Shown here: piece after piece, positions 28,886 through 64,000 of the stretch
How the letters are laid out: each line of letters begins with the position of its first letter
Numbering within the stretch: position 1 is the stretch's first letter
Origin: an uncultured Phycisphaeraceae bacterium
Lineage (GTDB): Bacteria; Planctomycetota; B15-G4; JADJEK01
Assembly (NCBI GenBank): GCA_964649825.1
Contig: CAZYQW010000086.1
Location: 21,027-85,026 of the forward strand
Direction: 5' to 3'
Length of the DNA: 64,000 bases
Notes under the pieces: model-generated
The model's input: only the letters and a program-made list of their open reading frames with translations
Database searches by the model: none
Told to the model about the DNA's origin: nothing
Translations under genes and position numbers: made by a program

Positions 28886-31834
28886 TCAGCGGCGCGAGGC
28901 CTCGATCGACTCGAGCCGAGCGCGGAGCGCCGCGACCGACGCGTGGCCGGAGCCGAGCTCCGCGGCCCAGCGCTCGATGACCCCACGAAGCAGGTCGATC
29001 GCGTCGGCGTGTCGTTCGAGCTCGACGAGGGTCTCGGTGGCGCGGGCGATCGCGAACGCGGCCCGCCCGTCGTCCGCGCCGAAGGCGGATTCCAGTCGCC
29101 GCGCCGCTTCGCTCCACCGACGGACGGCTTCGTCGTGGTCGCCCTCTCGAACGAGGAGCTCGGCGATGGTCAGTTGGAGGATCGTGACCTGCGGATGATC
29201 GTCACTCAGCCGCGACCGTATCGCCTCGAACCCGTCCCGCAGATACTCCGCCGCCTCGGCCACCCTCCCGCGATACAGGATCACCCGCCCCAACGCGAAC
29301 CGCGCGACGGCGGTCGTCAGGTGGCCGTCGCCCAAGGTCTCGCGCGAGAGATCGACCACGTCGCGGTAGATGCGCTCTCCTTCTGCGAGCCGGCCGCCGA
29401 ACGAGATCGCGTCGCCGAGCTCCGACATGTGTCCGACGAGGGCCGGGTGACGGTCGCCGAGCTGCGCCGCGAGACGCGTGATCCCGTCCCGCAGGGTCGA
29501 CTCGGCCTGGTCGAAGCGCCCCGCGGCGAGATCGATCGCGCCGCGCATGAGGAGCCCCTCGACGACCTCCGCGTTGTCGGCGCCAAACGCCGCGGTCGCG
29601 GCCGCGAGAAACGCGTCGCAGCACGCCGCGGCTTCATCGAAGCGGCCCATGTCGCGGAGCAGCGCAGCCAACGTCTGGCGCGCGTCGAGCGCCAGCGGAT
29701 GTGTCTCGCCGTGCGCGGCGACGAGGGCGTCGGCCGCCAAGCGCAGCTCGATCAGGGCCGCGTCGTAGCGGCCCGCCTCTCGCAACGCCCGCGCGAGGGC
29801 GGCGCGCGCGGCGGCGACGTCGGGATGATGGGCGTCGAACCGGGCCGACACGACCGCGAGGTTCGACTCGAGCATCAAAACCGCCTCGTGCGGCCGCCCC
29901 TCCTTCAGACGGAGATTCGCGACGGACGACGCGACGGCCCGCGTGTGATAGTGCTCCGCACCGAGCCGGTTCACGAGCGTCGCATAGCAAGCACCGAGGA
30001 GAGCGTCCGCCTCCTCGATCCGTCCCTGCGCGACGAACGCGTCGCCCAGGAGCTTGTCGATCCACGAAGCCAATTCGGTCCCCGCCGCCGCCGGCCCGAT
30101 CGCCAGCAGCCGTCGCTCCGCCGCCCCCGCGTCCGAGCGCAGGAGGTCGAGGTGCGCCAGGTCGAACGCCACGTGCACGAACTCGTCCGGATCCGGCGCG
30201 CCGGCCGCGGCGTAGCCGGCCTCCGCACGGAGGAGCAGCGGTTCCGCTGCGTCGAGCCGCCCATCGCTCAACAAGGCCGCCCCGAGCCGCCGGCGGCACT
30301 CGTGCGTACGCGGATCGTCGTCGCCGTACGCGCCGATCGCAAGCTCGAGGGCCCGTCGCAGCTCGGGCTCCGCACGGTCGAACGCCCCGAGCGCGACGTA
30401 CGCGGCGCCGGCCGTTCCGTGCACGCGGATCGCCGCGGCCGGGGCGCCGGCGAACGCGGTCGGGATCATCGGCACCGCCCGGTTCAAGACGTCCTCGACG
30501 CGCGCGTCCCGCCCGAGGTCGTCGCCGTCGACCGAGAGGATCATGTCGTGGAGAAAGCGGCTCACGTCATCCGCCTCGCGCCGGGCCCGCTCGGCGAGGG
30601 CGGCCTGGCGACCCGCCTCGCGCGCGTGAGAAACGGCGAGGAAGAGCCCCACCAGCAGCGCGAGCAGCGTCGTGGCGGCTCCGACGACGAGCGCCCGATG
30701 CAGGGCGACGAACCGCGCCGCTCGTCGTTGCCACTCGAGCGGCCGGGCGGCGATCGGGTCGCCGGCCACGATGGCGCGCAGGTCGCGAGCGAGCTCGACG
30801 GCCGACGGATAGCGATCGTTCGGGTCCTTGCGCAGCGCCTTCTCGACCACCGTCTCGAGGTCGCCGGAGAACGCTCGGTCGACGTCGCCGAGGCGCGGCG
30901 CGTCCTCGTGCACGATCCGATGCAGCGCGTCGGAGAACCGTTCGGGATCGAGGGACAGCGGCGGCCGACCCGCGAGCAGCTCGAACAGCAGCACGCCGAG
31001 CGCGAACACGTCGCTTCGTGCGTCGACGTCGCCGGCGCGACCCGACGCCTGCTCGGGGCTCAGGTACGCGAGCGTGCCGAGGATCTGACCGGCCGACGTG
31101 AGCGTCGCGGTTCGCTCGGGTCGGAGGATCCTCGCCACGCCGAAATCGACGATACGTGGGTCTCCGCGCCGGTCGACGAGCACGTTCGATGGCTTCAGGT
31201 CGCGATGGACGACGCGCTGGACGTGGGCGTGGGCGACGCCCTCGGCCACCCGCCGCATCAAATCGAGGCGCGCCCGCACCTCGAGTCGGTTCTCCGCCAC
31301 GTGACGATCGAGCGGGAGACCGTCGACCTTCTCGAGCACGAGGAACGGGTGGAGGATCTCCCCGATCGGGGCGAACCCCGCGTGATGGATGCGCGCCACG
31401 AACGGATGATCGAGCCGCGCGAGCGCGTCCGCCTCGCGGCGAAATCGCTCGAGCACCGACGGGTCCATCGCCGGCGCGCGGAGGAGCTTCAGCGCCACCC
31501 GCCGCCGGGGCGTCTCCGACTCGACTTCGAAGACGGTGCTCGCGGCGCCATGCCCGAGGATCGAGACGACGCGGTAGCCCGCGATCGCCTCGGGCAATGC
31601 GTCGAGGGCAAAGTCCCCCGAGCCCTCGAGCACGCCGGTCCAGGCGCCCGCCGGCACCAACGTCGCGTCGAGCGGGCTCGCGACCCCATCTTCGGCCAGC
31701 AGCTTCCGCACCTCGTCGGCGAGCGCGGAATCGTCCTCCCGCAAGGCGGCGAACAGCCGCTCGCGCTCCGACGCCGGGAGCGCTGCCGCTCGGTCGAACA
31801 AGGCCCGGAGGCGGCGGGGTCGATCCAGCGTCAC
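28886..31834 (-). CDS. Ser/Thr protein kinase (Hanks type) with one TM helix and an extracytoplasmic TPR region.
   Basis: The proposed GTG start at 31834 overlaps the ECF sigma stop by 4 nt. The kinase motifs read VALKLL, VVHRDLKPSNVLV, DFGVAR and GTLAYLSPE. A TM segment (LVVGAATTLLALLVGLFLAV) is followed by about 550 aa of TPR-like repeats. Confidence 0.8.
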   Translation of the reverse strand: MTLDRPRRLRALFDRAAALPASERERLFAALREDDSALADEVRKLLAEDGVASPLDATLVPAGAWTGVLEGSGDFALDALPEAIAGYRVVSILGHGAASTVFEVESETPRRRVALKLLRAPAMDPSVLERFRREADALARLDHPFVARIHHAGFAPIGEILHPFLVLEKVDGLPLDRHVAENRLEVRARLDLMRRVAEGVAHAHVQRVVHRDLKPSNVLVDRRGDPRIVDFGVARILRPERTATLTSAGQILGTLAYLSPEQASGRAGDVDARSDVFALGVLLFELLAGRPPLSLDPERFSDALHRIVHEDAPRLGDVDRAFSGDLETVVEKALRKDPNDRYPSAVELARDLRAIVAGDPIAARPLEWQRRAARFVALHRALVVGAATTLLALLVGLFLAVSHAREAGRQAALAERARREADDVSRFLHDMILSVDGDDLGRDARVEDVLNRAVPMIPTAFAGAPAAAIRVHGTAGAAYVALGAFDRAEPELRRALELAIGAYGDDDPRTHECRRRLGAALLSDGRLDAAEPLLLRAEAGYAAAGAPDPDEFVHVAFDLAHLDLLRSDAGAAERRLLAIGPAAAGTELASWIDKLLGDAFVAQGRIEEADALLGACYATLVNRLGAEHYHTRAVASSVANLRLKEGRPHEAVLMLESNLAVVSARFDAHHPDVAAARAALARALREAGRYDAALIELRLAADALVAAHGETHPLALDARQTLAALLRDMGRFDEAAACCDAFLAAATAAFGADNAEVVEGLLMRGAIDLAAGRFDQAESTLRDGITRLAAQLGDRHPALVGHMSELGDAISFGGRLAEGERIYRDVVDLSRETLGDGHLTTAVARFALGRVILYRGRVAEAAEYLRDGFEAIRSRLSDDHPQVTILQLTIAELLVREGDHDEAVRRWSEAARRLESAFGADDGRAAFAIARATETLVELERHADAIDLLRGVIERWAAELGSGHASVAALRARLESIEASRR

Positions 31835-32367
31835 CGCACGCCCTCGGCGCCGAGCTCGCGTCCGAGCCACGCCCGCGCAAAGCGCCAGTCGAGATCGACG
31901 GTGCGCGGCGAGACGCGAAGGACGGCCGCCGTCTCGTCGACCGAGAGCCCACCGAACCATTTCAGCTCCACGACTCGGGCCGCGCGCTCGTGCTCGCGAC
32001 CCAGCCGGTCCAGCGCCTCGTCGAGGGCGAGGAGGTCGGCAGTCGACGTCTCGCGCGCGCCGTCCGCCGCCACGAACTCGAGGCGAACGCGATCACCGCC
32101 TCGCTTGGCCGCACCGCGCCGCCTTGCATGGTCCACGAGAACCTCGCGCAGCGTGCGCGCGGCCAGAGCCAGGAAGTCGCCCCGCGCGACCCAAGCCGCT
32201 TCATTGCGCCCGAGCAGCTTCAGGAACGCCTCGTGCACGAGCGCGGTCGACTGTAGGGTATGTCCGGGCCGCTCGCGCGCGAGCGCCCGACTCGCGAGAC
32301 CACGCAAGCACTCGTAGACGATCGGCGTCCACCACCGGGCGTCGGAGCGAGTCGAATCGTGAGACAT
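31831..32367 (-). CDS. ECF sigma factor of the Ser/Thr-kinase-associated type (Sigma70_ECF/PF07638-like).
   Basis: The 178-aa ORF reads LVHEAFLKLL (region 2) and has a C-terminal region-4 helix-turn-helix (LSVDETAAVLRVSPRTVDLDWRFARAWL). It is translationally coupled to the kinase gene. Confidence 0.7.
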   Translation of the reverse strand: MSHDSTRSDARWWTPIVYECLRGLASRALARERPGHTLQSTALVHEAFLKLLGRNEAAWVARGDFLALAARTLREVLVDHARRRGAAKRGGDRVRLEFVAADGARETSTADLLALDEALDRLGREHERAARVVELKWFGGLSVDETAAVLRVSPRTVDLDWRFARAWLGRELGAEGVR

Positions 32368-35777: not shown

Positions 35778-38636
35778 TCACGGCGCGTCGAGCACGCCGA
35801 GGAGCCGCCGCGCGCCGCGATGGTCGGGGTCGACCCGGAGCACCTGCTCGACCAGGGTCCTCGCGTGGCGGAGGGCGCCGTCGGCGACGGCGTCCTCCGC
35901 CACCGCCGTCCACGCGTCCAGGTCGTCCGGGTGCTCGGTTCGCCAGCGCCACGTCGCCTCGCGGCGAAGCCCGTCCGCTGGACAGACGCCGCGCACGAAA
36001 CGGAACGTCAACGGGGTCGGCGACGACGCGCGCAAGAGCTGCGCGCACGCGGCGGCGAGTCCGCCGTCCTCGTCGGTCGCGAGCCCCGCGGCGTGGACCA
36101 GGCTAACGTGCGCCAACGGAAAGACCGAGTCGCGCTGGGCGGCCACGAGGAACTCGCGGGCCGCCGCGGCCCGATCGCCGCTCCGGCTGCGACACCACGC
36201 GCGCACGAACGCCATCGTTCCGTCCTCGTTGCTCGCGACGACGCGGTCCAGCGCCGACAGCATCGACTCCCGCGCCTTCCCGAGCAGAAGGACCGAGAGG
36301 GCCGCCGCGGTCGTGTCCCTCCAGTCCCGCGCCACCGACGGCGGAATCCGGAAGAGCGCCTCGGCGAGGCCGTCCTCCATGCCCGCGCTGGCGGTCGCGG
36401 CGAGCCCCGCGAGCGGCACGGCGAGGCGCATCACCGCGTCGAGCTTGGACGGCTCCTCGCCCAACACGCGATGCATCGCCTGCTCCTCGATCACCCGCGA
36501 AGCCTCGGTCACGTTCGCGAGCACGCCGAGCAACGCCCGCAGGATCCCGAGGGCGGACTCGCTCACCCGCGGGTAAGCGTCGACCAGCGCGGCGAGGTTG
36601 CTTCCCTCGACCACGGCCCGGCACCCGAGCTCCACGAACTGCGCCGACGGATCATCCGGGTACAACCGGCGATACTCCCGCGCCGCCTGGAGCGCGCGGG
36701 ACGGATGACCGGTCAACAGCAGCGTCGGCGCGAACATCTCGTTCGCGCGCCGATGACGGGAGTCGGCGGCGAGCGCTCGCTCGAGGTGGAGCCTCGCGGA
36801 CGCGGCGTCGCTCGCGAGCAGGGCGGCCGCGTACTCGGCGTCCGCCGCGTCCAGCCCGCCGCACGCGACGGCGTCCGCGACGAGCTCGAGGTGTCGCGGC
36901 TCGGCCGCGCGCTCCAGGTGCTCCCGCGTATGATCGCCGCGCAGGAGCAGCGTCTTCGCGAGATGGGGTCCGAGCTCGGCCGCCGAGAACCCGGCCAGCT
37001 CATCGATCGCGGCGCGCGCCCGCGCCAGCGCGCCCGCGCCTTCCCACGCCTCGATCTCGGACACGCGGATCCCGATCTCGTCGGCGCAGCCCCGGGCCCG
37101 CGCCTCCGCGTACCGCGCGTGCGCTTCCTCCCAGCGCCCGTAGAGCGCCGCGCGCAGCCCGAGGTTGAAGCTCTCCTCGGCGCTCTTCTGCGCCAGCTCG
37201 TCCCGCGACAGGACCGCGTCCTGCTCGCGAGCCCGCGCGACGTTTCGCTCGCCGCGGATGGCGAAGAGCGCGACGATGACGAGGCCGGTGATCAACGCCA
37301 TCGAGACCGCGGCCGAGACCGCGAGGGGCCGGTTCCGGACCATCCACTTCCGCAGCTCCGCCCACGGGCCCTCCTCGTAGGCGGCGACGACCCGTTGCTC
37401 GAGGAACGCGCGCAGGTCCTCGAGCAGACTGGTCATGCTCGGGTACCGATCGTCCACCCTCCACGCCATCGCCCGTTCGCAGACCGCCACCAGCTCCGCG
37501 GGCGCGTTGCCGGCCTTCGTCGCGAGCGGCGTCGGCGGGCCGCGCCGGGCCAACGCCAGCACGTCGGCCGCCGTCCGAGATTCGCCGCCGTCCAGGTAGG
37601 GCGCGTGGCCCGCGAGCAGCTCGTACAGGATGGCCCCGAACGCGTAGACGTCGGTGGCGGGGCCGATCCGATCGAGGTCGCCCGCGGCCTGTTCCGGCGC
37701 CATGTACGGGGCCGTCCCGACCGCTTCCCCCGGGTCGGTCCGGAGCGGCGAGCCGCGCTCCTCGACCAGAGCGTCGGCCCGCGTCGAGGTGACGCCGGAC
37801 GATGCCGAAGGCGAGCCGTCGGACACGAGCCGCGCGAGGCCCCAGTCCACGACGTACGTCTCTCCGAAGCGCCCGACCATGACGTTCTCCGGTTTGAGGT
37901 CGCGGTGGATCACGCCACGAGAGTGCGCGAACGCGAGCGATTCTCCGGCGCGTAGAAGGACGCCGAGCACCCGGGCTCGATTCCAGCCCTCGACGCCGCT
38001 CCTCGTCTTCGCGAGGACCGCGCGCAGGTCCTCGCCGGAGACGAGCTTCATCGCGTAGAAGACCCGGCCGTCGCGCGTGCCGACGTCGTGGACCGGGACG
38101 ATTCCGGGGTGGTCGAGCTGCGCCGTGACCTGCGCCTCCTCGAGGAATCGCCCGAGGCGGCGTCCGTGCTCGACGTCGCCGGGACGCCCCATCTCGTCGC
38201 TCATCATCTTCAACGCGACGGCGCGCCGGAGGTCGACGTCGAACGCGTGGTACACCTCGCCCATGCCGCCTCGTCCGAGGACCCCGTCGAGCACGTACCG
38301 GGGCTCGCCCGCCGCTCGCGAGCGGACCCGTTCCAGGAGGGCCGCCCACGTCGATGGGTCGCTCGGGTCGCCCTCGACGACCACTCGTCCGGGTTCCCCC
38401 CCGGCCGGCGCGGGCGAGGACGGCGACAGAGCGTCCCACACCAGCCCTTCGTACGCTCCCCAACCCGTCGCCAGCTCGCGGAGCGCCTCGGCATGCTCCG
38501 GGTAGCGGGAGGCCACCGACTCGATCGATCCTTGCTCGCCGCGTTCCCGCGCGGCCAGGTACTCGAGGAACGCGTCCTCGAGCGACGCCCCGTCCGGTCG
38601 ATCACCACCCGAGGCTTCATCCGCTGAAGAACGCAC
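35778..38636 (-). CDS. Ser/Thr protein kinase with a TM helix and a large C-terminal helical/TPR-like region.
   Basis: The kinase motifs read VALKMM, VIHRDLKPENVMV, DWGLAR and GTAPYMAPE. The TM segment reads LAVSAAVSMALITGLVIVALFAI. The start is uncertain. A GTG at 38636 is preferred over ATG 38732, because the interval contains 11-bp tandem repeats that are unlikely to be coding. Confidence 0.75.
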   Translation of the reverse strand: MRSSADEASGGDRPDGASLEDAFLEYLAARERGEQGSIESVASRYPEHAEALRELATGWGAYEGLVWDALSPSSPAPAGGEPGRVVVEGDPSDPSTWAALLERVRSRAAGEPRYVLDGVLGRGGMGEVYHAFDVDLRRAVALKMMSDEMGRPGDVEHGRRLGRFLEEAQVTAQLDHPGIVPVHDVGTRDGRVFYAMKLVSGEDLRAVLAKTRSGVEGWNRARVLGVLLRAGESLAFAHSRGVIHRDLKPENVMVGRFGETYVVDWGLARLVSDGSPSASSGVTSTRADALVEERGSPLRTDPGEAVGTAPYMAPEQAAGDLDRIGPATDVYAFGAILYELLAGHAPYLDGGESRTAADVLALARRGPPTPLATKAGNAPAELVAVCERAMAWRVDDRYPSMTSLLEDLRAFLEQRVVAAYEEGPWAELRKWMVRNRPLAVSAAVSMALITGLVIVALFAIRGERNVARAREQDAVLSRDELAQKSAEESFNLGLRAALYGRWEEAHARYAEARARGCADEIGIRVSEIEAWEGAGALARARAAIDELAGFSAAELGPHLAKTLLLRGDHTREHLERAAEPRHLELVADAVACGGLDAADAEYAAALLASDAASARLHLERALAADSRHRRANEMFAPTLLLTGHPSRALQAAREYRRLYPDDPSAQFVELGCRAVVEGSNLAALVDAYPRVSESALGILRALLGVLANVTEASRVIEEQAMHRVLGEEPSKLDAVMRLAVPLAGLAATASAGMEDGLAEALFRIPPSVARDWRDTTAAALSVLLLGKARESMLSALDRVVASNEDGTMAFVRAWCRSRSGDRAAAAREFLVAAQRDSVFPLAHVSLVHAAGLATDEDGGLAAACAQLLRASSPTPLTFRFVRGVCPADGLRREATWRWRTEHPDDLDAWTAVAEDAVADGALRHARTLVEQVLRVDPDHRGARRLLGVLDAP

Positions 38637-38649
38637 GGGACCTCCTCCT

Positions 38650-38681
38650 CCGCTCGAGTTTCCGCTCGAGTTCCGCTCGGC
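38650..38681. repeat. Tandem 11-bp direct repeat (CCGCTCGAGTT x2 plus a partial copy) in the divergent region between the kinase and ECF sigma genes.
   Basis: The sequence was read directly as tCCGCTCGAGTTtCCGCTCGAGTTCCGCTCGG. The unit length is not a multiple of 3. Confidence 0.4.
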
Positions 38682-38872
38682 GTGCCGCCGCGAGCGACCG
38701 ACCCTCCGCCGAGAAACTCTGGCAGAATCCACGTCCGGTGCGCCGCGCCGCCACGTTCATTGGGGGCAGGACGCGTCCGACGGCTTCGAGACCGCGGAAA
38801 GGAGCGCGCGTGCCCGGCCAGGATCCTACCCCTTCACCCGCCGAGCGGCATGAAACCCCTTCTCGCGACCGC

Positions 38873-39511
38873 ATGGAGACCGACGAGTTCCTCGGTCTCT
38901 TCCAGCGCGCGAAAGAGGGCGACCTCGACGCCTTCGAGCGGATCTTCGAGCGGTGCTACAACACGGTCCTCGCGATCGTTCGCCGCCGGCTGGGGGCGCG
39001 GATGCGCGAGGTCGTCGAGTCCGGCGACGTGCTCAACGACGTCATGGTGCGGGCGATCCAGAACTTCTCCGGCTTCGACGTCGGCAACCGGACCGAGCTG
39101 CTCGCGCTCTTCGTGCACATGGTCAAACAGGGGATCACGGACGCCGCCCGCTACCACGGGGCGCAGAAGCGAGACCGCGACCGCGTGCGCGCGCTCCGGC
39201 ACGTCACCGAGTCGATCGCCAGCGGCCGCCTCGTCCTCGAGCCGGCCGCGGACGCGCCCGCCATCCTCGACCACCTCTCGCGCGAAGAGGAGAAGGAGAT
39301 CGCGAAGCAGTGCCTCGCCGAGCTCGACCCGACCGACCGGGCCGCGATCGAGTCCCGCACGATCCACGCGGACGCGAGCTGGGACGAGATGGCCGCGCTC
39401 CTCGGTGCGCCGAGCGCGGACGCCGCCCGTCATCGAGTCCAACGCGCCATGATCGCGCTGAAGAAGCGCTACGACCGAGCGAGGGGCGGCGATCGTCCTT
39501 CGGATTCTTGA
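38873..39511 (+). CDS. ECF sigma factor, Ser/Thr-kinase-associated type (second copy).
   Basis: The ORF starts METDEFLGLFQRAKEGDLDAFERIFERCYNTVLAIVRRRL and has a C-terminal region 4 (LDPTDRAAIESRTIHADASWDEMAALLG). It is divergent from the kinase at 35778. Confidence 0.7.
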   Translation: METDEFLGLFQRAKEGDLDAFERIFERCYNTVLAIVRRRLGARMREVVESGDVLNDVMVRAIQNFSGFDVGNRTELLALFVHMVKQGITDAARYHGAQKRDRDRVRALRHVTESIASGRLVLEPAADAPAILDHLSREEEKEIAKQCLAELDPTDRAAIESRTIHADASWDEMAALLGAPSADAARHRVQRAMIALKKRYDRARGGDRPSDS

Positions 39512-56787: not shown

Positions 56788-58425
56788 ATGCTCGCACGAT
56801 CGATCGGTCTCGTCACGCTCGCCGGGCTCGGCGCGTGCGGAACGCTTGGAATCGGAGGAATGAACGACATCGACGCTCGCCTGGCCAAGTTCGCCCCCGT
56901 GCGCATCCAGGCCGACCTGTCCGATCTCCCCGCGTCGGAGCGGGAAGCGCTCGACCACCTCGTCGCGGCGGCCAAGCTGATGGAGCCGATCTTCCTCCGG
57001 CAGGCGTGGCACGAGAACCCGCGGCACGCGGAGACTCTCGACGGCCCGGCGCGCGAGCTGTTCTTCATCCACGCTGGTATCTGGGACCGCATCGACGAGG
57101 AGCCGTTCGTCGGATCGACGCCGCGGCCCGAGGTCGCCGGCTTCTACCCCGCCGACCTCACGCGCGAGGAGTTCGATGCGTACGTCGCGGCGCACCCGGA
57201 GCAAAAGGAGGCGCTGGAGAGCCTGTTCACGATCGTCGTGCGCGACGGCACGGGACTCCGCGCGATCCCCTACTCCGAGGCATTCGCCGAGTGGCTCGTG
57301 CCGGCCGCAGAGCACCTACGAGCCGCCGCGCGCGTCACCCGGAACGAGTCGCTGCGCCGCTTCGCCGACAGCCGCGCCGCCGCGTTCCTGTCCGACGACT
57401 ACTACCAGAGCGACGTGGACTGGATGGACCTCGACGGACTGGTCGAGATCACGATCGGGCCGTACGAGACGTACGAGGACCGTCTGTTCGGCTACAAGGC
57501 CGCGTTCGAGGCGTTCGTGACCGTGGCCGACAAGACGGAGAGCGCGCGGCTCGAGCTCTACAAGTCCGAGCTGCCGATGATGGAGCAGAACCTCCCGATC
57601 CCGGACTCGATGAAGAACCTGGATCGCGGCAGCGAGTCGCCGATCCGCGTGGTCGACGTCTACTACGCGTCGGGCGACACGCGCGCCGGCGTGCAGACGA
57701 TCGCGTTCAACCTGCCGAACGACGAGCGCGTGCGCGAGGCGAAGGGGAGCAAGAAGGTGCTCCTGCAGAACGTGATCGAGGCGAAGTACGGCGGGATCCT
57801 GCAGCCGATCGCCGTTGCGATGCTCGTGCCCGAGCAAATCGATCTCGTGACCGCGGACGCGTTCACGAACCAGACGCTCTTCCACGAGCTGTCGCACGGG
57901 CTCGGTCCAGGACGGATCGTGAAGGACGGCCGCGAGACCGAGGTGCGCCTCGAGCTGAAGGACCTCTATTCGCCGCTCGAGGAAGCGAAGGCCGACATCA
58001 TGGGCGTCTACAACCAGCTCCTGATGGTGGAGAAGGGCCTGATGCCCGCCTCGACCACGGAGACCCTCTACCCGACGTGGCTCGCCGGCCTGTTCCGCTC
58101 GATCCGTTTCGGCGTGGAGGAGGCGCACGGCAAGGCGAACATGATCCAGTTCAACTACATGCAGGACCACGGCGCGATCGCGCGCGACCCCACGACCGGC
58201 CGCTACCGGGTCGACTTCGACAAGTTCGCCGACGAGACGAGGAACCTGGTCCGCGACATCTGCGTGCTCCAGGCGAACGGCGACTACGACGGTACGCTCG
58301 AGTTCCTCCTCGAGTACGGCGAGATGGGCGACGAGCTGATGCGCGACCTGACGCGGCTCGAAGGGATTCCGGTCGACGTCCGCCCGATCTACGACCCCGA
58401 CGAGGCGATGGCCGGGCACGGATGA
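56788..58425 (+). CDS. DPP III-like (M49-related) zinc metallopeptidase lipoprotein with an HExxH-variant motif.
   Basis: A GGAGGA site precedes ATG 56788. The lipobox reads MLARSIGLVTLAGLGAC. The zinc motifs read TLFHELSHGLGP and EEAKADIMG, which resemble the M49 HExxGH/EECRAE pair. Confidence 0.6.
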   Translation: MLARSIGLVTLAGLGACGTLGIGGMNDIDARLAKFAPVRIQADLSDLPASEREALDHLVAAAKLMEPIFLRQAWHENPRHAETLDGPARELFFIHAGIWDRIDEEPFVGSTPRPEVAGFYPADLTREEFDAYVAAHPEQKEALESLFTIVVRDGTGLRAIPYSEAFAEWLVPAAEHLRAAARVTRNESLRRFADSRAAAFLSDDYYQSDVDWMDLDGLVEITIGPYETYEDRLFGYKAAFEAFVTVADKTESARLELYKSELPMMEQNLPIPDSMKNLDRGSESPIRVVDVYYASGDTRAGVQTIAFNLPNDERVREAKGSKKVLLQNVIEAKYGGILQPIAVAMLVPEQIDLVTADAFTNQTLFHELSHGLGPGRIVKDGRETEVRLELKDLYSPLEEAKADIMGVYNQLLMVEKGLMPASTTETLYPTWLAGLFRSIRFGVEEAHGKANMIQFNYMQDHGAIARDPTTGRYRVDFDKFADETRNLVRDICVLQANGDYDGTLEFLLEYGEMGDELMRDLTRLEGIPVDVRPIYDPDEAMAGHG

Positions 58426-59021
58426 CCGGCGGCGCGGGCCAGGATGACGTCGCGCGCGCGGTCGGCGGCGACGAGGCGGCGCTCTCGCGGCTGCTGCTGC
58501 GGCACGCCGTTCGGATCCGTCGCTCCATCACGATCGTCCTGCCTCCTCGGCTTCGCGCGCTCCTGTCCGAAGACGACGTCCTGCAGCAGACGTTCACCGA
58601 CGCGTTCCTCGACGTCGACCGGTTCACCGGCGCCGGCGAGGAGGCGTTCGCGGCCTGGCTCGCGCGCCTCGCTCGGAACAACCTGCAGGACGCGATCCGC
58701 GCGCTCGACGCCGTGAAGCGCGGCGGCAAGGAGGCGCCCCGCGCCGACGATGCGAATTCGTTCGAGACGTTGTTCGTGAACCTGCTCGCGCGTACTCGCA
58801 CCACGCCGAGCGGACACGCGGTGCGCGAGGAGATGATCGCGTCGATGCGGGACGCGATCGATCGCCTTCCCGCCGATCACGCTCGCGTCGTCCGGCTCTA
58901 CGACCTGGAATCGCGCCCGATCGCCGAGGTCGCGGCCGCCCTCGGACGGAGCGAGGGCGCGACGTTCCTGCTGCGCCACCGCGCGCATCGCCGGCTGCGG
59001 GACATGCTCGGGGGAGGGTGA
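58422..59021 (+). CDS. ECF sigma factor, Ser/Thr-kinase-associated type (third copy).
   Basis: The ATG overlaps the peptidase stop (ATGA). The ORF reads AVGGDEAALSRLLLRHAVRIRR, has a region 4 (LYDLESRPIAEVAAALGRSEGATFLL), and is similar to the two other ECF sigma copies in the window. Confidence 0.7.
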   Translation: MTGGAGQDDVARAVGGDEAALSRLLLRHAVRIRRSITIVLPPRLRALLSEDDVLQQTFTDAFLDVDRFTGAGEEAFAAWLARLARNNLQDAIRALDAVKRGGKEAPRADDANSFETLFVNLLARTRTTPSGHAVREEMIASMRDAIDRLPADHARVVRLYDLESRPIAEVAAALGRSEGATFLLRHRAHRRLRDMLGGG

Positions 59022-59073: not shown

Positions 59074-60864
59074 CTACGGGATCGTGATCCGCACGCCGTT
59101 CGTGTTCGAGAAGCCGAGCGGGATCGCGCCGGCGTCGATGATGAACGCCTGCATCGCCACCGAGACCGACAGGTTCAGCGCGACCGGGATCGCGCCCGGG
59201 ATCGACACCGCGCCGTTTCCGGCGCCGCTGCCGCCGAAGGTCAGCCCGATCGGGCCGGGGAGGAACGGGAACACGTTCGCCACGCAGCCGAACCCGATCT
59301 CGACCGACGCCGGCTGGAGCCCGAGGAAGAGGAGCCCCGTCGCGCCGCCGACCGCGTTCGTGACCGAGAGCGTCACCACCGATCCCTTGGTCGTGCAGCC
59401 GTCCAGGTCGAGCACCGGCACGAACCCGCCGGAGCCGACGCAGCCCGTTCCATAGGAAACCGTCTGGCTGCACTGGCGCTCGTGCGCCCCCATGTCGACG
59501 ACCGGCGCGATGCCGACGCCCGTGTCCGCCGCGTTCACCTCGTCGGAGAAGCGCGGCTGACCGCCCCCGTCGGTCGGCGTCGGCTCGAGCTGGTTCGCGT
59601 CGCCGTCGAGATCGAGCGCGTCCGCGGGAACCGCCGTCCCGTCGCCCGCGTCGACGCACGGCGAGAGCAGGCCCAGGCGCAGGTCGTCGTCGCCGGTCCC
59701 CACCACGTCGTCCGCGCCGTCCGCGTCGAGGAAGAGCGGGTCGAGCCCGACGTTCGTTCCGCCGAGCGCGCCGGTGAGCCCCTGGATGCAGGAGCGGTCG
59801 ACGACGCTCGGCTCCGGGCCGAGCTGGATCTGCGCCGCCTCGCTCAGGACGCCGGACGTCGAGTTCCCCCACAGGATCGAGTTGGTGAGCTGCGTCGCCA
59901 CCCGGAGGAACACGTTGTCCGCGAGCAGGCCGCCCGCCTTCGCGGTCGACACGTTGCCGGCGAAGGTGCAGAGCGCGACGGACAGCGCGACGGGCGCCGT
60001 GAACGAGTCGCCGATGACGTACGCGCCGCCGCCGCCGTCGACCGCGGAGTTGCCGCTGAACCGGCAGTTCACGAGGGTGGCGTCGCCGACCGCGCAGAGC
60101 CCGCCGCCGAGGCCGGTCGAGTGGTTGCCGGCGAACGAGCAGCCCGCGAGGGTGACGTCGCCCGCGTAGAGACCGCCGCCAAGCGCGCCGCCGGCGCTCG
60201 CCCCGGCCCGGTTCTGCTCGAACGCGCAGTAGATCAACGCCGGCGTGCCGGCGCCGACGGCCGCCATGCCGCCTCCGATCGCGCCGAACCCGTCGCCGAC
60301 GAGGTTGTCGCGCACGCGGCAGTTGCGAAGCACGGGGCTCGACGAGACCGAACGAACCCCCGCCCCTTCGTTCGGCGCGGCGTCGTCGTGCCCGCCGCGG
60401 ATCGAGAACCCGTCGAGGGTCGTGGCGCTTCCCGCCGCGCTGAACGTCACCACGTTCAGGCTGTTGTCGCCGCGGTTCGCGAACGCGGGCCCGTCGTCGC
60501 CGGAGAGGTCGCCGGACAGGATCGTCTGATCGAACAGCCCGGCGCGCTGCGCGAGCGTCGCCTCGACGCCGGAGAAGCCGCCGAAGACGGCGACGCCGTC
60601 CGGGATGAGGAACGTCGCGGAACGATCGAGCGGAGTCCGACCGCCGCCGGCGTCCGGCCGATAGGTCCCCGCCGCGACCCACACTTCGTCGCCCGCCGCC
60701 ACCACGGAGAGCGCGTCCTGCAGCGCGGTGAACGCGTCGGTCCACGACGTCCCGTCGTTCGCCCCCATCGCGGAGTCGTCGACGAAGTGGGTCGCGGCGC
60801 CGACCGCGCCGGTCGCGAGGCTGAGGACGAGGACGGCGAGGACGCACGAGCGCCGGTGTCGCAT
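59074..60864 (-). CDS. Secreted right-handed parallel beta-helix repeat protein with a C-terminal module shared with the FG-GAP protein.
   Basis: The ORF starts at ATG 60864. The signal peptide reads MRHRRSCVLAVLVLSLATGAVGAA. Repeated segments such as NxxxGGGxxxxGxxxLxxCxFxGN are typical of pectate-lyase-like beta-helices. The C-terminus reads GTGCVGSGGFVPVLDLDGC... Confidence 0.65.
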   Translation of the reverse strand: MRHRRSCVLAVLVLSLATGAVGAATHFVDDSAMGANDGTSWTDAFTALQDALSVVAAGDEVWVAAGTYRPDAGGGRTPLDRSATFLIPDGVAVFGGFSGVEATLAQRAGLFDQTILSGDLSGDDGPAFANRGDNSLNVVTFSAAGSATTLDGFSIRGGHDDAAPNEGAGVRSVSSSPVLRNCRVRDNLVGDGFGAIGGGMAAVGAGTPALIYCAFEQNRAGASAGGALGGGLYAGDVTLAGCSFAGNHSTGLGGGLCAVGDATLVNCRFSGNSAVDGGGGAYVIGDSFTAPVALSVALCTFAGNVSTAKAGGLLADNVFLRVATQLTNSILWGNSTSGVLSEAAQIQLGPEPSVVDRSCIQGLTGALGGTNVGLDPLFLDADGADDVVGTGDDDLRLGLLSPCVDAGDGTAVPADALDLDGDANQLEPTPTDGGGQPRFSDEVNAADTGVGIAPVVDMGAHERQCSQTVSYGTGCVGSGGFVPVLDLDGCTTKGSVVTLSVTNAVGGATGLLFLGLQPASVEIGFGCVANVFPFLPGPIGLTFGGSGAGNGAVSIPGAIPVALNLSVSVAMQAFIIDAGAIPLGFSNTNGVRITIP

Positions 60865-61175
60865 CGGGGGCTCCAGTTGGGTTCCAGGCTTCAGCTTCTT
60901 CGCGTGCCGCGAAGAACTTGAAGCATATCCACCCGACACGTGACCGCGTCCTCAGGCGCACACGTGGCGTGTGCTTCCTCGGTTGCGGTCCTACCGCGTT
61001 GGGTCGATCGGGGTCGAGTCGATGATGGGCTCGGAAGAGTAACTCATGGGTCGCGCGGCGGACAGACGTCGCCTGCGGATCGCGCCTTCGGCCGCCGCGG
61101 CCCCGGCGGCGCGAAAAAGGACGAGATCCGCGTAAGCGCCCCGGCCCGACTACGCTTCTCCGATCGGAACGACCC

Positions 61176-64000
61176 ATGAAGCTGCCCCACGACGCCTCCG
61201 ACTCGGGATCCCGCGACGCCGACCTGATCCGCGCCGCGCAGGACGACGCCCGGGCGCTGCGAGGGGCGGGGAACGAACGCCGGGCTCCGATCGGCGCGAT
61301 CCGCTTCCCCGGGTACGTCGTCGAGGCGGAGATCCACCGCGGCGGCCAGGGCGTCGTCTTCCGTGCCCGCCAGGAGGGCACCGGACGGCCGGTCGCGATC
61401 AAGCTGCTCCACGGCGGGCCGTTCGCGGGCGACCGCGAGCGGGTCCGGTTCGAGCGCGAGGCGCAGATCCTGGCGCGCCTCAAGCATCCGAACATCGTCG
61501 CGATCCACCACACCGGGCAGTCGGGCGAGGCCGGAGGCGGCGCCTACTTCGTGATGGACCACGTGGACGGCCGGCACCTCGACCGGTACGTGGAGGAGAC
61601 CCGGCTCGCCCCGCGCGCCGTCGTCGTGCTGTTCGAGAAGATCTGCGACGCGGTCCACGCCGCGCACCTCCACGGAGTCATCCACCGCGACTTGAAGCCG
61701 AGCAACATCCGCGTCGACGCGCGCGGCGAGCCGCACGTGCTCGACTTCGGCCTGGCGAAGAGCACGAGCGCCCTGCCGGACCGAACGCCGCCCGTGACCG
61801 ACCCGGGACAGTTCATCGGCTCGCTGCCGTTCGCGAGCCCCGAGCAGGCGGCCGGCGACGGCGGCGCGGTCGACCTGCGGACCGACGTGTACGCGATCGG
61901 CGTGATGCTCTACGTCTGCCTGACCGGCGCGCATCCGTACGACGTCTCCGGGCCGTTGAAGCGCTCCCTCGACAACATCCTGAACGCCGCGCCGGCGCCG
62001 CCGGCGCGACTTCGCCCCGACGTCGACGACGACGTGGCGAGCATCGTGCTCCGCTGTCTCGAGAAGGACCCGCGCCGCCGATACCAGGGCGCCGGCGAGG
62101 TCGCGCGCGACCTCCGCCGCTTCCTCGACGGCGAACCGGTGGACGCGAAACGCGACCGCGCCTTGTACGTCATCTCACGGACGCTGTCCCGCTACCGCAT
62201 GCAGGTCGGCCTCGCCCTCGGGTTCGTCGGAGTGATCGCGGCCGGACTGGTGACGGCGCTCCTCCTTTGGAGCGTCGCGGCGCGCGAACGCGACGCCGCG
62301 TACGAGGCGGGGCTCGCCGCCGACGCGGCTCGCGCCGCGGCCGAGCGCAAGCAGCAGGACCTCGCGCGCCAGCTCTACTTCCACCGGCTGCTCGCGGCGC
62401 AGGTCGCGCTCGACGACGGAAACGTCGCGCGCGTGCGCGAGCTCCTCGATGAAAGCCCGGCCGAGCTCCGCGGCTGGGAGTGGCGGCACCTGGCGTGGAT
62501 GGCCGACCGCTCGGCGCGCACGTTCGTGGCCGGCCGTCCGTTGCTCTGCGTCGACGTGTCGCCGGGAAACGATCGGATCGCGGCCGGCGACGCCGACGGC
62601 GCCCTCCACGTATGGAACGCGATGAGCGGCGCGGTCCTCGACGCACGGCCGCGCCACGACGGCGCGATCCACGGAGTTCGATTCGGTCCCGGCGAGCTCG
62701 TCGCCACCGCCGGCGAGGACGGCGTGGTCCGAGTGACGGACGCGGTCCGCGACGTCACGCTCCCCGGCGCCGGGAGCGAGGTGCGCTGCGTGACGTTCAC
62801 GAACGACGGCGGCGTCGTCGCCGGCGACGACGGCGGCCGCGGCTTCCGGTGGGACGTCGCGACGTCGCGCGAGCTCGCGCGCCGCGAGCTCGGGGGCTCG
62901 ATCCTATCGATCGTCTCTCATGCGATGACGAACGAGGTGCTCGCCGCTGGACGGGACGGCGCGGTGTTCGCGCTCGACGCGGCCACGCTGGAGGTCCGCC
63001 GCGAGGTCGCGCGGCTCGACGCGGGCGTCACGAGCCTCGCGCTCCACGAATCCTCCGGCACCCTCGCGGCCGGCATGGTCAACGGCACGGCCGCGATCAT
63101 CGATCTCCCGAGCGGAGCCGAACGCGGCCGCGTCCGCGCGCACGGCGAGTGGGTGCACGCGGTGTCGTTGAGCGCGGATGGGCTCTTCCTCCTGACCGCC
63201 GGCGCCGACCACACGGTGATGGCGTGGAACGTACGCACGCTGGATCGCGACCGGACGTACCGCGGTCCCACCGACCGCGTCTTCGGCGTCCGCTTCCTCG
63301 CCGACGGCAGGAGCGTCGTCTGCGCGTCTCTCGACGGCACGGTCCGCCTCTTCGACCGCGACGCCGCCGATCGCGCGCGGGTGTTCCAGAGCCACGATGG
63401 ACAGGTCTGGTGCGCCGACTTCGTCGACGCCGGACGCACGTTCGTCGCGGGCGGATCGGACGGTCGACTGCGGCGGTTCGACACGCGCGACGTCACCGGC
63501 GTGCCGCTCGCCCGGCGCGCCCACGACGGGGCCGTGACCTCGCTGGTCGTCGATCGGGCCGAAGAGGTCGTCGTCGCGGCGGGCGCCGACGGACGGGTCA
63601 AGCGCTTCCGCCTCCCCGAGCTGCGGCCGGACGGCGAGCTCTTCGCCGGCGGAGCGTGGATCCACGCGCTCGCGCTGTCGCCGGACGGCGGCACGGTGGC
63701 CGTCGCCTCGCACGACTCGACGGTGCACCTGGTCGCGGCTCGCGACGACGGCGCGCCTCCGCGCCTCCTGGCCACGCTCGAGCGCCGGCCGTACGCGATC
63801 GGGTTCGCCCGCGGCGGCCAGGAGATCGTGGTCGGCGACGCGGCGGGACGGCTCGTTCGCCTCGACGCGAGCCGCGGTGTCACGCGGTCGATCGATCCCG
63901 TCCACGACGGCGTCATCTGGTCGCTCGCGGTCGCCCCCGACGGCGCCACCGTGGCGACCGCATCGGCCGACGGCACGGCGACGATCATCTCGCTCGACGA
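61176..64000 (+). CDS. Ser/Thr protein kinase fused to a TM helix and a WD40 beta-propeller. It is partial and continues past the window end.
   Basis: The kinase motifs read VAIKLLH, VIHRDLKPSNIRV, DFGLAK and GSLPFASPEQ. The TM segment reads VGLALGFVGVIAAGLVTALLLW. Multiple WD-like repeats follow (DGxxxVWN, DxxVRLFD and similar). It is absent from the ORF track because no stop codon is reached. Confidence 0.8.
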   Translation, partial: MKLPHDASDSGSRDADLIRAAQDDARALRGAGNERRAPIGAIRFPGYVVEAEIHRGGQGVVFRARQEGTGRPVAIKLLHGGPFAGDRERVRFEREAQILARLKHPNIVAIHHTGQSGEAGGGAYFVMDHVDGRHLDRYVEETRLAPRAVVVLFEKICDAVHAAHLHGVIHRDLKPSNIRVDARGEPHVLDFGLAKSTSALPDRTPPVTDPGQFIGSLPFASPEQAAGDGGAVDLRTDVYAIGVMLYVCLTGAHPYDVSGPLKRSLDNILNAAPAPPARLRPDVDDDVASIVLRCLEKDPRRRYQGAGEVARDLRRFLDGEPVDAKRDRALYVISRTLSRYRMQVGLALGFVGVIAAGLVTALLLWSVAARERDAAYEAGLAADAARAAAERKQQDLARQLYFHRLLAAQVALDDGNVARVRELLDESPAELRGWEWRHLAWMADRSARTFVAGRPLLCVDVSPGNDRIAAGDADGALHVWNAMSGAVLDARPRHDGAIHGVRFGPGELVATAGEDGVVRVTDAVRDVTLPGAGSEVRCVTFTNDGGVVAGDDGGRGFRWDVATSRELARRELGGSILSIVSHAMTNEVLAAGRDGAVFALDAATLEVRREVARLDAGVTSLALHESSGTLAAGMVNGTAAIIDLPSGAERGRVRAHGEWVHAVSLSADGLFLLTAGADHTVMAWNVRTLDRDRTYRGPTDRVFGVRFLADGRSVVCASLDGTVRLFDRDAADRARVFQSHDGQVWCADFVDAGRTFVAGGSDGRLRRFDTRDVTGVPLARRAHDGAVTSLVVDRAEEVVVAAGADGRVKRFRLPELRPDGELFAGGAWIHALALSPDGGTVAVASHDSTVHLVAARDDGAPPRLLATLERRPYAIGFARGGQEIVVGDAAGRLVRLDASRGVTRSIDPVHDGVIWSLAVAPDGATVATASADGTATIISLD

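What the first reader, a model, noticed from the sequence alone, without database searches (positions are those of the whole stretch)
28886..32367. ECF sigma factor translationally coupled to a TM/TPR Ser/Thr kinase (copy 1 of three ECF-STK modules in the window)
A 178-aa ECF sigma of the kinase-associated type (LVHEAFLKLL region 2, region-4 helix-turn-helix) ends 4 nt inside the start of a ~980-aa Hanks kinase that has a single TM helix and a long periplasmic TPR array. This fits the ECF43-type arrangement described mainly in Planctomycetes and relatives. In that arrangement a eukaryotic-like kinase, rather than an anti-sigma factor, controls the sigma factor. Two further copies occur in the same 64 kb, at 35778-39511 and at 58422-59021 plus 61176-end. 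Three such modules in one window is a striking density. The mechanism by which the kinase controls the sigma factor is poorly understood.
Basis: partly seen in the sequence, partly recalled or inferred. Interest (0 to 1): 0.6.

Follow-up and report, generated by a model that had tools for sequence, protein, structure and literature searches.

The report
Kinase-switched ECF43 sigma factor pair
This is an ordinary member of a well-described bacterial signalling pair in which a membrane receptor kinase switches on its neighbouring sigma factor by phosphorylating one conserved threonine; the mechanism was worked out experimentally in 2020-2026, so it is real but not new.

Summary
A 178-aa sigma factor (31831-32367, minus strand) passes the ECF43-type models: PF07638 E=4e-46, TIGR02999 182 bits against a cut-off of 126. 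Its TGA stop overlaps the GTG start of a 982-aa Hanks kinase by 4 nt. The kinase has an ~85-aa N-terminal helical extension, a kinase domain, one TM helix and a ~500-aa TPR array.

The acidic sigma2.2 patch is replaced by Q-S-T-A. T41 is invariant in 41 homologues and matches the mapped phosphosites EcfP T63 and EcfK T51. A same-strand kinase follows the sigma gene in 65 of 80 homologous loci from many phyla. The kinase, including its N-terminal extension, matches crystallised PknS (9eed, E=1e-40), which has the same architecture.

It is therefore a new member of a known kind. The claim that the mechanism is poorly understood is out of date.

"Three modules" is only partly right:
- Sigma 3 with kinase 3 is a different, acidic-sigma2.2 kinase-linked pair, split by an opposite-strand gene.
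- Sigma 2 with kinase 2 is a divergent pair with no conserved linkage.

Side notes:
- The kinase N-terminal extension tracks ECF43 sigmas across phyla.
- An unannotated C-terminal domain is shared by two secreted proteins that sit next to the modules.

The parts
31831..32367 (-). ECF43-type sigma factor (sigma 1), 178 aa
   Evidence: PF07638 E=4.4e-46. TIGR02999 182.4 bits against a cut-off of 126.15. AlphaFold model pLDDT 80 with three sigma2 helices, a linker and four sigma4 helices. Best structural matches are ECF sigma factors.
32242..32253 (-). sigma2.2 motif Q39-S40-T41-A42 in place of the acidic DAED/DxxD patch; T41 (codon 32245-32247) is the predicted phospho-acceptor
   Evidence: Read from the sequence. 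Q39 and T41 are invariant in 41 sequences. The third position is Thr in 75 of 78 locus sigmas. It aligns with EcfK peptide AGLQATELVHEAWMR, phospho-T51, and with TAED of BldN 6dxo.
32077..32079 (-). E97 in the sigma2-sigma4 linker, inferred equivalent of EcfK T106 (second phosphosite); here a fixed acidic residue
   Evidence: Residue frequencies at positions 97-100 of A1 (T/S 80%, L 90%, D/E/S/T 68%, D/E 54%) match those of columns T106-L109 in Table S6 of PMC13147305. This is an inference from column matching.
31831..31834 (-). GTGA: kinase GTG start overlapping the sigma TGA stop (4-nt overlap); GAGGG Shine-Dalgarno-like at 31841-31845
   Evidence: The same starts are called independently in the Logan contig. 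The 982-aa product is on record. 18 of 65 homologous pairs allow the same 4-nt overlap.
31577..31834 (-). N-terminal helical extension of the kinase (residues 1-86; conserved core about 1-50: RRLRALFDRAAALPASERERLFAALREDDSALADEVRKLLAED)
   Evidence: Aligns from the first residue with 60 partner kinases. An HMM of the motif hits 63 of 63 sigma-adjacent kinases and 0 of 6 kinases linked to other sigma types. Matches PknS residues 10-56 (9eed_A, E=0.0015 for the extension alone). No Pfam family covers it.
30809..31576 (-). Hanks-type Ser/Thr kinase domain (residues 87-342)
   Evidence: Pkinase E=3.5e-41. PknB 3f69 E=8e-46 and PknS 9eed E=1e-40. The motifs GHGAASTV, VALK, HRDLKPSN, DFG and SPE, and an activation loop rich in Thr/Ser, are read from the translation.
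30632..30688 (-). Single transmembrane helix (residues about 383-401)
   Evidence: It is the only 19-residue window with mean Kyte-Doolittle hydropathy above 1.5 (value 2.49).
28910..30427 (-). Extracytoplasmic TPR array (residues about 470-975)
   Evidence: TPR_12 E=3.1e-40 in six stretches; TPR_10 and TPR_19 also match. An extracytoplasmic location is inferred from the cytoplasmic kinase domain plus one TM helix.
58422..59021 (+). Sigma 3: ECF sigma of a second kinase-linked family, with acidic sigma2.2 (SEDD); not ECF43
   Evidence: TIGR02984 108 bits, below its cut-off, and no TIGR02999 hit. 3 of 3 homologue loci have a same-strand kinase just downstream.
61176..63998 (+). Kinase 3 (Pkinase + TM + WD40-like repeats), probable partner of sigma 3; runs off the window
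   Evidence: It is 47% identical over 515 aa to the kinase that overlaps a sigma 3 homologue by 4 nt in L085.
38873..39511 (+). Sigma 2: divergent ECF sigma (ESGD in sigma2.2), transcribed divergently from kinase 2
   Evidence: PF07638 38 bits. TIGR02999 33 bits against a cut-off of 126. Only 11 homologues were found, and the 3 contexts examined have no kinase.
35778..38732 (-). Kinase 2 (Pkinase + one TM + about 490 aa of unassigned extracytoplasmic region); start at 38636 or 38732
   Evidence: It has no ECF43-type N-terminal motif.

Best explanation
Copy 1 is a two-gene signalling operon of the ECF43 type.

The sigma factor is made in an intrinsically inactive form. Its sigma2.2 helix carries Q-S-T-A where other ECF sigmas carry the acidic patch (DAED/DxxD) that contacts the beta-prime subunit.

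The downstream, translationally coupled receptor kinase sits in the inner membrane. Its TPR array is outside the cytoplasm; its kinase domain and helical N-terminal extension are inside. An unknown envelope or extracellular cue, sensed through the TPR array, activates the kinase by autophosphorylation of its Thr/Ser-rich activation loop. The kinase then phosphorylates sigma T41. The phosphate supplies the missing negative charge, the sigma binds core RNA polymerase, and its regulon is transcribed. An unlinked phosphatase presumably resets the switch.

Shown here: the family membership, the motif, the gene coupling, the domain architecture, and their conservation.

Inferred from experiments on EcfP/PknT and EcfK/PknS: the phosphorylation itself, its site, and its effect.

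The second regulatory site described in EcfK (linker T106) appears to be a fixed Glu (E97) here. T41 would then be the only switch, as in EcfP.
For: - Sigma passes the specific models: PF07638 E=4.4e-46 and TIGR02999 182 bits against a cut-off of 126.
- QSTA replaces the acidic patch, and T41 and Q39 are invariant in 41 homologues. Thr occupies that position in 75 of 78 locus sigmas.
- The EcfK phosphopeptide AGLQATELVHEAWMR (pT51) aligns residue for residue with TLQSTALVHEAFLK.
- The literature gives the mechanism and states that the Thr is conserved in 88% of ECF43 members (PMC13147305, PMC8999054).
- A same-strand Hanks kinase lies immediately downstream in 65 of 80 loci across many phyla.
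- The 4-nt overlap is seen in the sequence and in independent gene calls.
- The kinase has all catalytic motifs. It shares with PknS the N-terminal extension, one TM helix and a periplasmic TPR region.
- No anti-sigma factor gene lies beside the pair.
- In the AlphaFold model T41 sits at the start of the second sigma2 helix (H40-53).
- E97 corresponds to EcfK T106 by matching column frequencies.
Against: - Nothing here shows phosphorylation, the inducing signal or the regulon.
- The EcfK T51A variant still complemented in X. citri, so the sigma2.2 Thr is not always indispensable.
- No PP2C-type phosphatase was seen in the 64 kb.
- The promoter-like motif found upstream of some homologous sigma genes is absent upstream of this one, so autoregulation is not supported.
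- The sigma has a shorter N-terminus than most family members; the profile match starts at model position 24. A subset of homologues shares this.
- The P-loop reads GHGAAS, not the usual GxGGMG seen in the other partner kinases.
Confidence: 0.85

Rival explanations
1. The kinase controls the sigma mainly by binding it. It would act like an anti-sigma factor, tethering the sigma at the membrane through the conserved N-terminal helical extension, with phosphorylation secondary or serving only for release.
For: - The N-terminal extension occurs in 63 of 63 sigma-adjacent kinases. It is absent from kinases linked to other sigma types.
- It is predicted helical in PknS and its function is unknown.
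- Translational coupling gives near-stoichiometric synthesis, as is typical for sigma/anti-sigma pairs.
Against: - In the characterised systems, loss of the kinase abolishes sigma activity rather than releasing it. A phosphomimetic sigma bypasses the kinase.
- The missing acidic patch already explains the inactivity.
- No similarity to anti-sigma domains was found.
Confidence: 0.08
2. The two genes are merely co-transcribed. The kinase has other substrates, and the sigma is controlled at the level of transcription or stability.
For: - Bacterial Hanks kinases usually have several substrates.
- No experiment was done on this organism.
- The EcfK T51A variant remained functional in vivo.
Against: - The pairing is conserved in 65 of 80 loci across phyla.
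- The Thr is invariant exactly where other ECFs need an acidic residue.
- Direct phosphorylation has been demonstrated for two homologous pairs.
Confidence: 0.05
3. The ORFs are not real genes but chance open frames in 73% G+C DNA, or the kinase really starts elsewhere so that there is no coupling.
For: - Many long spurious ORFs overlap the region on both strands.
- An in-frame ATG at 31960 would give a 1024-aa product.
Against: - Domain E-values are 1e-41 to 1e-46.
- GC3 is 0.83-0.86 in the called frames.
- Homology to partner kinases begins at the GTG.
- Two independent gene calls give the 982-aa product.
- The ATG at 31960 would overlap the sigma gene by 130 nt.
Confidence: 0.02

Closest known systems
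EcfK / PknS of Xanthomonas citri (ECF43; PMC13147305; PknS 1-364 structure, PDB 9eed)
   Same: - ECF43-type sigma with Q-x-T-x in sigma2.2. EcfK has QATE with pT51; this sigma has QSTA with T41.
- The partner kinase has the same architecture: an N-terminal helical extension of about 83 aa, a Hanks domain, one TM helix and a periplasmic TPR region.
- The kinase matches 9eed over residues 7-352 at E=1e-40, and the match includes the extension.
   Different: - EcfK keeps one acidic residue next to the Thr and uses a second phosphosite, T106, in the linker. This sigma has Ala after the Thr and apparently a fixed Glu (E97) at the T106-equivalent position.
- The TPR array is much longer here (about 500 aa against three repeats).
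- EcfK/PknS sits in a T6SS cluster. No T6SS genes are in this window.
- The organism is a high-GC uncultured bacterium, probably of the Planctomycetota, going by the named homologues of sigma 1 and sigma 3.
EcfP / PknT of Vibrio parahaemolyticus (ECF43; Iyer et al. 2020, as summarised in PMC8999054)
   Same: - The sigma2.2 motif has no acidic residue at all (STTA there, QSTA here).
- A single Thr switch supplies the charge for RNA polymerase binding.
- The threonine kinase is encoded nearby and there is no anti-sigma factor.
   Different: - The signal (polymyxin) and the regulon are known for EcfP and unknown here.
- I could not retrieve the EcfP sequence, so the comparison rests on published motif descriptions.
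Other kinase-linked ECF groups (ECF59-62, ECF217, ECF267, ECF283; PMC7826278)
   Same: - Sigma 3 with kinase 3, and possibly sigma 2 with kinase 2, resemble these groups: an ECF sigma next to a TM Hanks kinase with WD40 or TPR sensor arrays and no anti-sigma factor.
   Different: - These groups keep an acidic sigma2.2 motif and their mechanism is untested (PMC8999054).
- Copy 1 does not belong to them.
- I could not assign sigma 2 or sigma 3 to a numbered group.

Membership tests
ECF43 sigma factors (TIGR02999 / PF07638 type) | Sequence matches the family-specific model above its curated cut-off | tested here: met
   TIGR02999 182.4 bits against a cut-off of 126.15. PF07638 157.6 bits, E=4.4e-46.
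ECF43 sigma factors (TIGR02999 / PF07638 type) | The acidic DAED/DxxD patch of sigma2.2 is replaced by an uncharged motif with a conserved Thr (consensus QTTA) | tested here: met
   QSTA at residues 39-42. T41 is invariant in 41 sequences and present in 75 of 78 locus sigmas. It aligns to the EcfK pT51 peptide.
ECF43 sigma factors (TIGR02999 / PF07638 type) | A Hanks-type Ser/Thr kinase gene co-occurs next to the sigma gene | tested here: met
   The kinase overlaps the sigma stop by 4 nt. The arrangement is conserved in 65 of 80 homologous loci.
ECF43 sigma factors (TIGR02999 / PF07638 type) | No co-encoded anti-sigma factor | tested here: met
   The neighbours are an FG-GAP protein, an M20/M28 peptidase and a multihaem cytochrome/TPR protein. 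No anti-sigma domain was found in the window ORFs scanned. Small unannotated ORFs cannot be excluded.
ECF43 sigma factors (TIGR02999 / PF07638 type) | The sigma is phosphorylated on the sigma2.2 Thr by the partner kinase, and this is required for binding RNA polymerase | not testable with these tools
   This needs biochemistry or genetics. It has been shown only for EcfP and EcfK.
ECF43 sigma factors (TIGR02999 / PF07638 type) | Assignment to group ECF43 by the ECF classification HMMs (ECF Hub) | not tested
   The classifier is not available here. TIGR02999 and the motif were used as proxies.
ECF43 partner kinases (PknS / PknT type) | Active Hanks kinase domain with all catalytic motifs | tested here: met
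   Pkinase E=3.5e-41. The VALK Lys, HRDLKPSN, DFG and SPE motifs are read from the translation. PknB E=8e-46. The P-loop is GHGAAS rather than GxGGMG.
ECF43 partner kinases (PknS / PknT type) | Helical N-terminal extension of about 80 aa before the kinase domain, then a single TM helix and an extracytoplasmic sensor region | tested here: met
   The extension is homologous to PknS residues 10-56 and to 63 of 63 sigma-adjacent kinases. There is one TM helix and a TPR_12 array. The extension is described for PknS in PMC13147305.
ECF43 (tested for sigma 2 and sigma 3 of the window) | Family model above its cut-off and a non-acidic sigma2.2 with the conserved Thr | tested here: not met
   Sigma 2 scores 33.2 bits on TIGR02999 (cut-off 126) and has ESGD. 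Sigma 3 has no TIGR02999 hit and has SEDD. Both only just pass the looser PF07638 threshold (38.1 and 22.6 bits against 21.1).
Canonical anti-sigma-regulated ECF sigma factors | Acidic sigma2.2 patch and a downstream anti-sigma factor gene | tested here: not met
   The motif is QSTA instead of an acidic patch. The downstream gene is a kinase.

The most novel reading that the evidence does not exclude
The conserved helical N-terminal extension of the kinase could be the sigma-docking module that gives each ECF43 kinase its cognate specificity. It is unannotated in Pfam, invisible in the PknS crystal, and described so far only as conserved in Xanthomonadaceae. Here it is found in 63 of 63 sigma-adjacent kinases from many phyla.

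In this particular sigma the second RNA-polymerase contact site is hard-wired acidic (E97), which would make T41 the sole switch.

The two neighbouring secreted proteins that carry a widespread, unannotated C-terminal domain could be outputs of the local sigma/kinase modules.
Probability: 0.3. Interest if true: 0.4.

Novelty: new member of a known kind. Interest (0 to 1): 0.2.

Why it matters
On its own it adds one more ECF43 pair to many thousands: more than 7,600 homologous sigma clusters were scored.

Its use is as an annotation anchor. T41 can be named as the predicted switch residue, and the kinase start and topology can be fixed.

The window also shows that one genome combines at least two mechanistically different kinase-linked ECF types. 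The mechanism of the second type (acidic sigma2.2) is still untested in the literature.

The cross-phylum conservation of the kinase's N-terminal extension gives a concrete, testable hypothesis for how these kinases recognise their sigma.

Tried and rejected
1. Looking up the sigma by exact sequence in the contig index found nothing. The kinase look-up worked.
2. A profile of the sigma family against PDB sequences matched only sigma4 regions. The sigma2 domain is too divergent, so the DAED equivalence rests on a weak BldN alignment, on sigma 2 in the window and on the published EcfK peptide. The sigma 3 profile alignment did not reach region 2.2.
3. De novo promoter search upstream of 81 sigma genes.
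   - ACGCGC-N15-17-GG[C/G/A]TCA is enriched: at most 1 mismatch in 8 of 81 sequences, against 0 of 81 on the reverse strand and 1 of 405 shuffles.
   - It is absent upstream of the window sigma (best match has 4 mismatches) and is not enriched in the window (8 hits against about 9 expected).
   - So there is no regulon prediction.
4. Comparing the intergenic regions of the three modules and the two secreted-protein genes for shared motifs gave only GC-rich, low-information matches.
5. The sigma-70 promoter and intrinsic terminator scan of 28600-32700 found nothing.
6. The original Iyer et al. 2020 paper is not held. Its content is cited through PMC8999054, PMC7826278 and PMC13147305.
7. The source genome is not among the 80 best loci of the genome collection, where the best match is 56% identical. 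The organism is therefore only inferred as Planctomycetota-like from the named homologues.
8. No PP2C phosphatase or anti-sigma factor was found among the window ORFs scanned.
9. A defence-system reading of the kinases (MADS6 and PglW hits) was rejected, because the scores are far below the cut-offs and cover only the generic kinase domain.


Full report
**What is there**

The window is 66-75% G+C, so long spurious ORFs occur in every frame. Third-position GC singles out the real frames: 0.83 for the sigma ORF and 0.86 for the kinase ORF.

- Sigma factor: 31831..32367 on the minus strand, 178 aa. It cannot be longer, because a stop lies just upstream.
- Kinase frame: open from 32092. Possible starts are an ATG at 31960 and a GTG at 31834. 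The GTG overlaps the sigma TGA (GTGA) and is preceded by GAGGG at a 6-nt spacing.

Three independent lines favour the GTG, which gives 982 aa:
- Homology with 60 partner kinases from other genomes begins exactly there: VTLDRPRRLRALF aligns with M-T-P-E-R-W-x-x-I-x-x-L-F.
- The 982-aa sequence is on record in the protein collection.
- A separate Logan assembly of run SRR10083321 calls a 178-aa gene and a 982-aa gene overlapping by 4 nt.

**Domains**

Sigma factor:
- PF07638 at E=4.4e-46.
- NCBIfam TIGR02999 at 182 bits, against a cut-off of 126.
- The AlphaFold model built on 41 sequences has pLDDT 80. It shows three sigma2 helices, a linker and four sigma4 helices. Its best structural matches are ECF sigma factors.

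Kinase, from N- to C-terminus:
- An unassigned stretch, residues 1-86.
- A Hanks kinase domain, residues 87-342 (E=3.5e-41). The catalytic Lys, HRD, DFG and SPE motifs are all present, and the activation loop is rich in Thr/Ser.
- One hydrophobic helix, residues 383-401.
- Six TPR_12 stretches up to residue about 975.

Because the kinase domain must be cytoplasmic, the TPR array is extracytoplasmic. This step is inferred.

**The switch residue**

Where canonical ECF sigmas carry an acidic patch in helix 2.2 (DAED/DxxD), this protein reads H-T-L-Q-S-T-A-L-V-H-E-A-F.
- In an alignment with 40 homologues of 50-59% identity, Q39 and T41 are invariant.
- In the sigma genes of 80 genome loci the four-residue motif is QPTA, QTTA, QATA or QSTA in 65 of 78 readable cases. 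The third position is Thr in 75 of 78.
- The published phosphopeptide of EcfK, AGLQATELVHEAWMR with the phosphate on T51, aligns residue for residue with TLQSTALVHEAFLK. T41 is therefore the equivalent of EcfK T51 and EcfP T63.
- For comparison, sigma 2 and sigma 3 of the same window carry ESGD and SEDD at that place. ESGD comes from the profile alignment; SEDD is read by eye from the translation, because the sigma 3 profile alignment covers only residues 61-157.

**Second site**

EcfK has a further functional phosphosite, T106, in the sigma2-sigma4 linker. Table S6 of the EcfK paper gives the Ser/Thr/Asp/Glu frequencies for seven linker columns.

The pattern in my alignment matches columns T106 to L109: position 97 is T/S in 80%, 98 is L in 90%, 99 is D/E/S/T in 68%, and 100 is D/E in 54%. 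This places E97 at the T106 position.

If the mapping is right, this sigma carries a permanent negative charge there and T41 is its only switch, as in EcfP. This is an inference from column statistics, not from an alignment with the full EcfK sequence, which I could not obtain.

**Conservation of the pair**

- More than 7,600 homologous sigma clusters were scored.
- The 80 best loci in the species-representative genome collection come mostly from Acidobacteriota. Planctomycetota, Gemmatimonadota, Eisenbacteria, Calditrichia, Ignavibacteriales, Verrucomicrobia, Rhodothermales and one Burkholderiales genome are also present.
- In 65 of the 80 loci a kinase ORF follows on the same strand. In 18 of those 65 a start codon allows the same 4-nt overlap.
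- The kinase domain begins a median of about 250 nt after the sigma stop. In the window the distance is 257 nt.

**The kinase's N-terminal extension**

The constant distance above reflects a conserved extension of about 80 aa. Its core reads roughly ERxxFLxxxCxxDxxLRxEVExLL.
- An HMM of this core hits 63 of 63 sigma-adjacent kinases.
- It also hits 11 of 16 other kinases in the same loci, several of them convergent with or slightly downstream of the sigma gene.
- It hits the kinase behind a PF07638 sigma in L086.
- It hits none of six kinases linked to other sigma types, including kinases 2 and 3 of the window.
- Caveat: the HMM was trained on most of the 63 adjacent kinases.

**Link to experiment**

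Against PDB sequences the kinase matches PknB at E=8e-46. It also matches 9eed_A over residues 7-352 at E=1e-40, a match that includes the extension. The first 118 residues (the extension plus the first residues of the kinase domain), searched alone, still find 9eed at E=0.0015, over query residues 7-53.

9eed_A is a 364-residue "kinase domain protein", the length of the crystallised Xanthomonas citri PknS(1-364) construct.

PknS is described as having an 83-aa N-terminal segment "conserved among Xanthomonadaceae homologs", a Hanks domain, a TM region and periplasmic TPRs. AlphaFold predicts the N-terminal segment to be three to four antiparallel helices, and it is invisible in the crystal.

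The literature establishes the mechanism:
- ECF43 sigmas lack the acidic sigma2.2 motif and are intrinsically inactive.
- The partner kinase phosphorylates the conserved Thr, which restores the charge needed to bind RNA polymerase.
- A phosphomimetic sigma bypasses the kinase.
- This has been shown for EcfP/PknT, for a Hyphomonas pair and for EcfK/PknS.

**The other two "copies"**

Sigma 3 and kinase 3:
- Sigma 3 (58422..59021) overlaps the stop of an upstream M49 peptidase gene.
- It is followed by a secreted beta-helix protein on the opposite strand (59074..60939) and only then by kinase 3 (61176 onward; kinase, TM helix, WD40-like repeats).
- Sigma 3 does not hit TIGR02999. Its best model is TIGR02984, below its cut-off.
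- Its homologues, mostly Phycisphaerae, have a same-strand kinase directly downstream in 3 of 3 loci examined, once with a 4-nt overlap.
- Kinase 3 is 47% identical over 515 aa to one of those partner kinases.
- Module 3 is therefore a real pair of a second kind, interrupted by one gene.

Sigma 2 and kinase 2:
- Sigma 2 (38873..39511) is divergent from kinase 2.
- Only 11 homologues were detected, and the three with usable context have no kinase nearby.
- This pairing is unsupported beyond adjacency.

Expansions of membrane kinases with periplasmic TPR or WD40 arrays are already documented in Planctomycetota. The local density is therefore not remarkable.

**What remains unknown**

The signal, the regulon and the phosphatase are all unknown.
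- A promoter-like motif, ACGCGC-N15-17-GG[C/G/A]TCA, is enriched upstream of a minority of homologous sigma genes. It is absent here and is not enriched in the window.
- No PP2C phosphatase or anti-sigma factor was seen among the ORFs scanned.

**Verdict**

This is a correctly spotted, real and typical ECF43 sigma/kinase operon: a new member of a known kind with a known mechanism. Interest is low.

The modestly new points are:
- the cross-phylum conservation of the kinase's N-terminal extension;
- the probable fixed Glu at the second regulatory site;
- the coexistence of a second, mechanistically unexplained sigma/kinase type in the same window.

Noticed in passing
window 33782-34177 (+) and 59086-59481 (-): Two secreted proteins share a C-terminal domain of about 133 aa with conserved Cys and Gly (YGxGCxGSGGFxPxL...GC...QAFxxD); the two copies are 42% identical, E=2e-25. 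One is the FG-GAP protein 32546-34192, divergent from sigma 1. The other is the beta-helix protein 59074-60939, lying between sigma 3 and kinase 3. The domain has no Pfam or NCBIfam hit at E<=1. It hits 1,294 cluster representatives at E<=0.001 (447 at E<=1e-10), in the 150 listed ending at or within about 15 residues of the C-terminus of proteins of 119-1066 aa. The N-terminal parts of those proteins vary: FG-GAP, beta-helix/PMP, Kelch. It looks like an unannotated C-terminal sorting or anchoring domain.
   Followed up: partly
window 58422-59021 (+), 59074-60939 (-), 61176-63998 (+); loci L084, L085, L086: Sigma 3 belongs to a second kinase-linked ECF family with an acidic sigma2.2 (SEDD). 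In 3 of 3 homologue loci a kinase follows directly on the same strand, carrying TPR or WD40 arrays. In the window the pair is split by an opposite-strand beta-helix gene. In L086 a Beta_helix gene also lies between an ECF43-type pair and a sigma-3-type pair.
   Followed up: partly
loci L017, L025, L040, L050, L054, L074, L077, L079 (70-270 nt upstream of the sigma genes): A promoter-like bipartite motif, ACGCGC(A)-N15-17-GG[C/G/A]TCA, lies upstream of ECF43-type sigma genes from several phyla. It occurs with at most 1 mismatch in 8 of 81 sequences, against 0 of 81 on the reverse strand and 1 of 405 shuffles. It may be the autoregulatory promoter of part of the family. It is absent upstream of the window sigma.
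   Followed up: partly
window 31577-31834 (-) and the kinases of 63 loci: The kinase N-terminal extension (core ERxxFLxxxCxxDxxLRxEVExLL) has no Pfam family. It is present in every sigma-adjacent kinase examined, across many phyla. The literature mentions its conservation only within Xanthomonadaceae.
   Followed up: yes
window 38873-39511 (+): Sigma 2 is an unusually isolated ECF sigma. Only 11 homologues were found in the 5.8-billion-protein word-indexed search, the nearest at 44% identity.
   Followed up: partly
window 31831-32367 (-), residues 1-22: Sigma 1 and a minority of its homologues (P0003, P0009, P0020, P0024, P0028, P0043, P0061) lack the usual N-terminal GDxxA helix. They have instead a short W-containing segment followed by Y-[DE]-C-L-R/H, with a conserved Cys.
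   Followed up: no
window about 40790-41652 (-): Adjacent nucleotidyltransferase (NTP_transf_2/Polbeta) and HepT-like genes, which together look like an MNT/HEPN toxin-antitoxin pair (Pfam labels from the Logan contig).
   Followed up: no
window 27012-28835 (+): A multihaem cytochrome c (several CxxCH motifs; Cytochrome_C7 and Paired_CXXCH hits) is fused to a C-terminal TPR region. It is convergent with the kinase gene, with 50 nt between the two stops.
   Followed up: no
window 1088-2335 (-) and 20074-21876 (-): A fourth sigma factor is present, a sigma-70 with regions 1.2, 2 and 4. A Kdo/WaaP-family lipopolysaccharide kinase lies next to a glycosyltransferase.
   Followed up: no
window 8154-8228 (-) and 14900-14973 (-): Two tRNA genes are the only Rfam matches in the window.
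   Followed up: no
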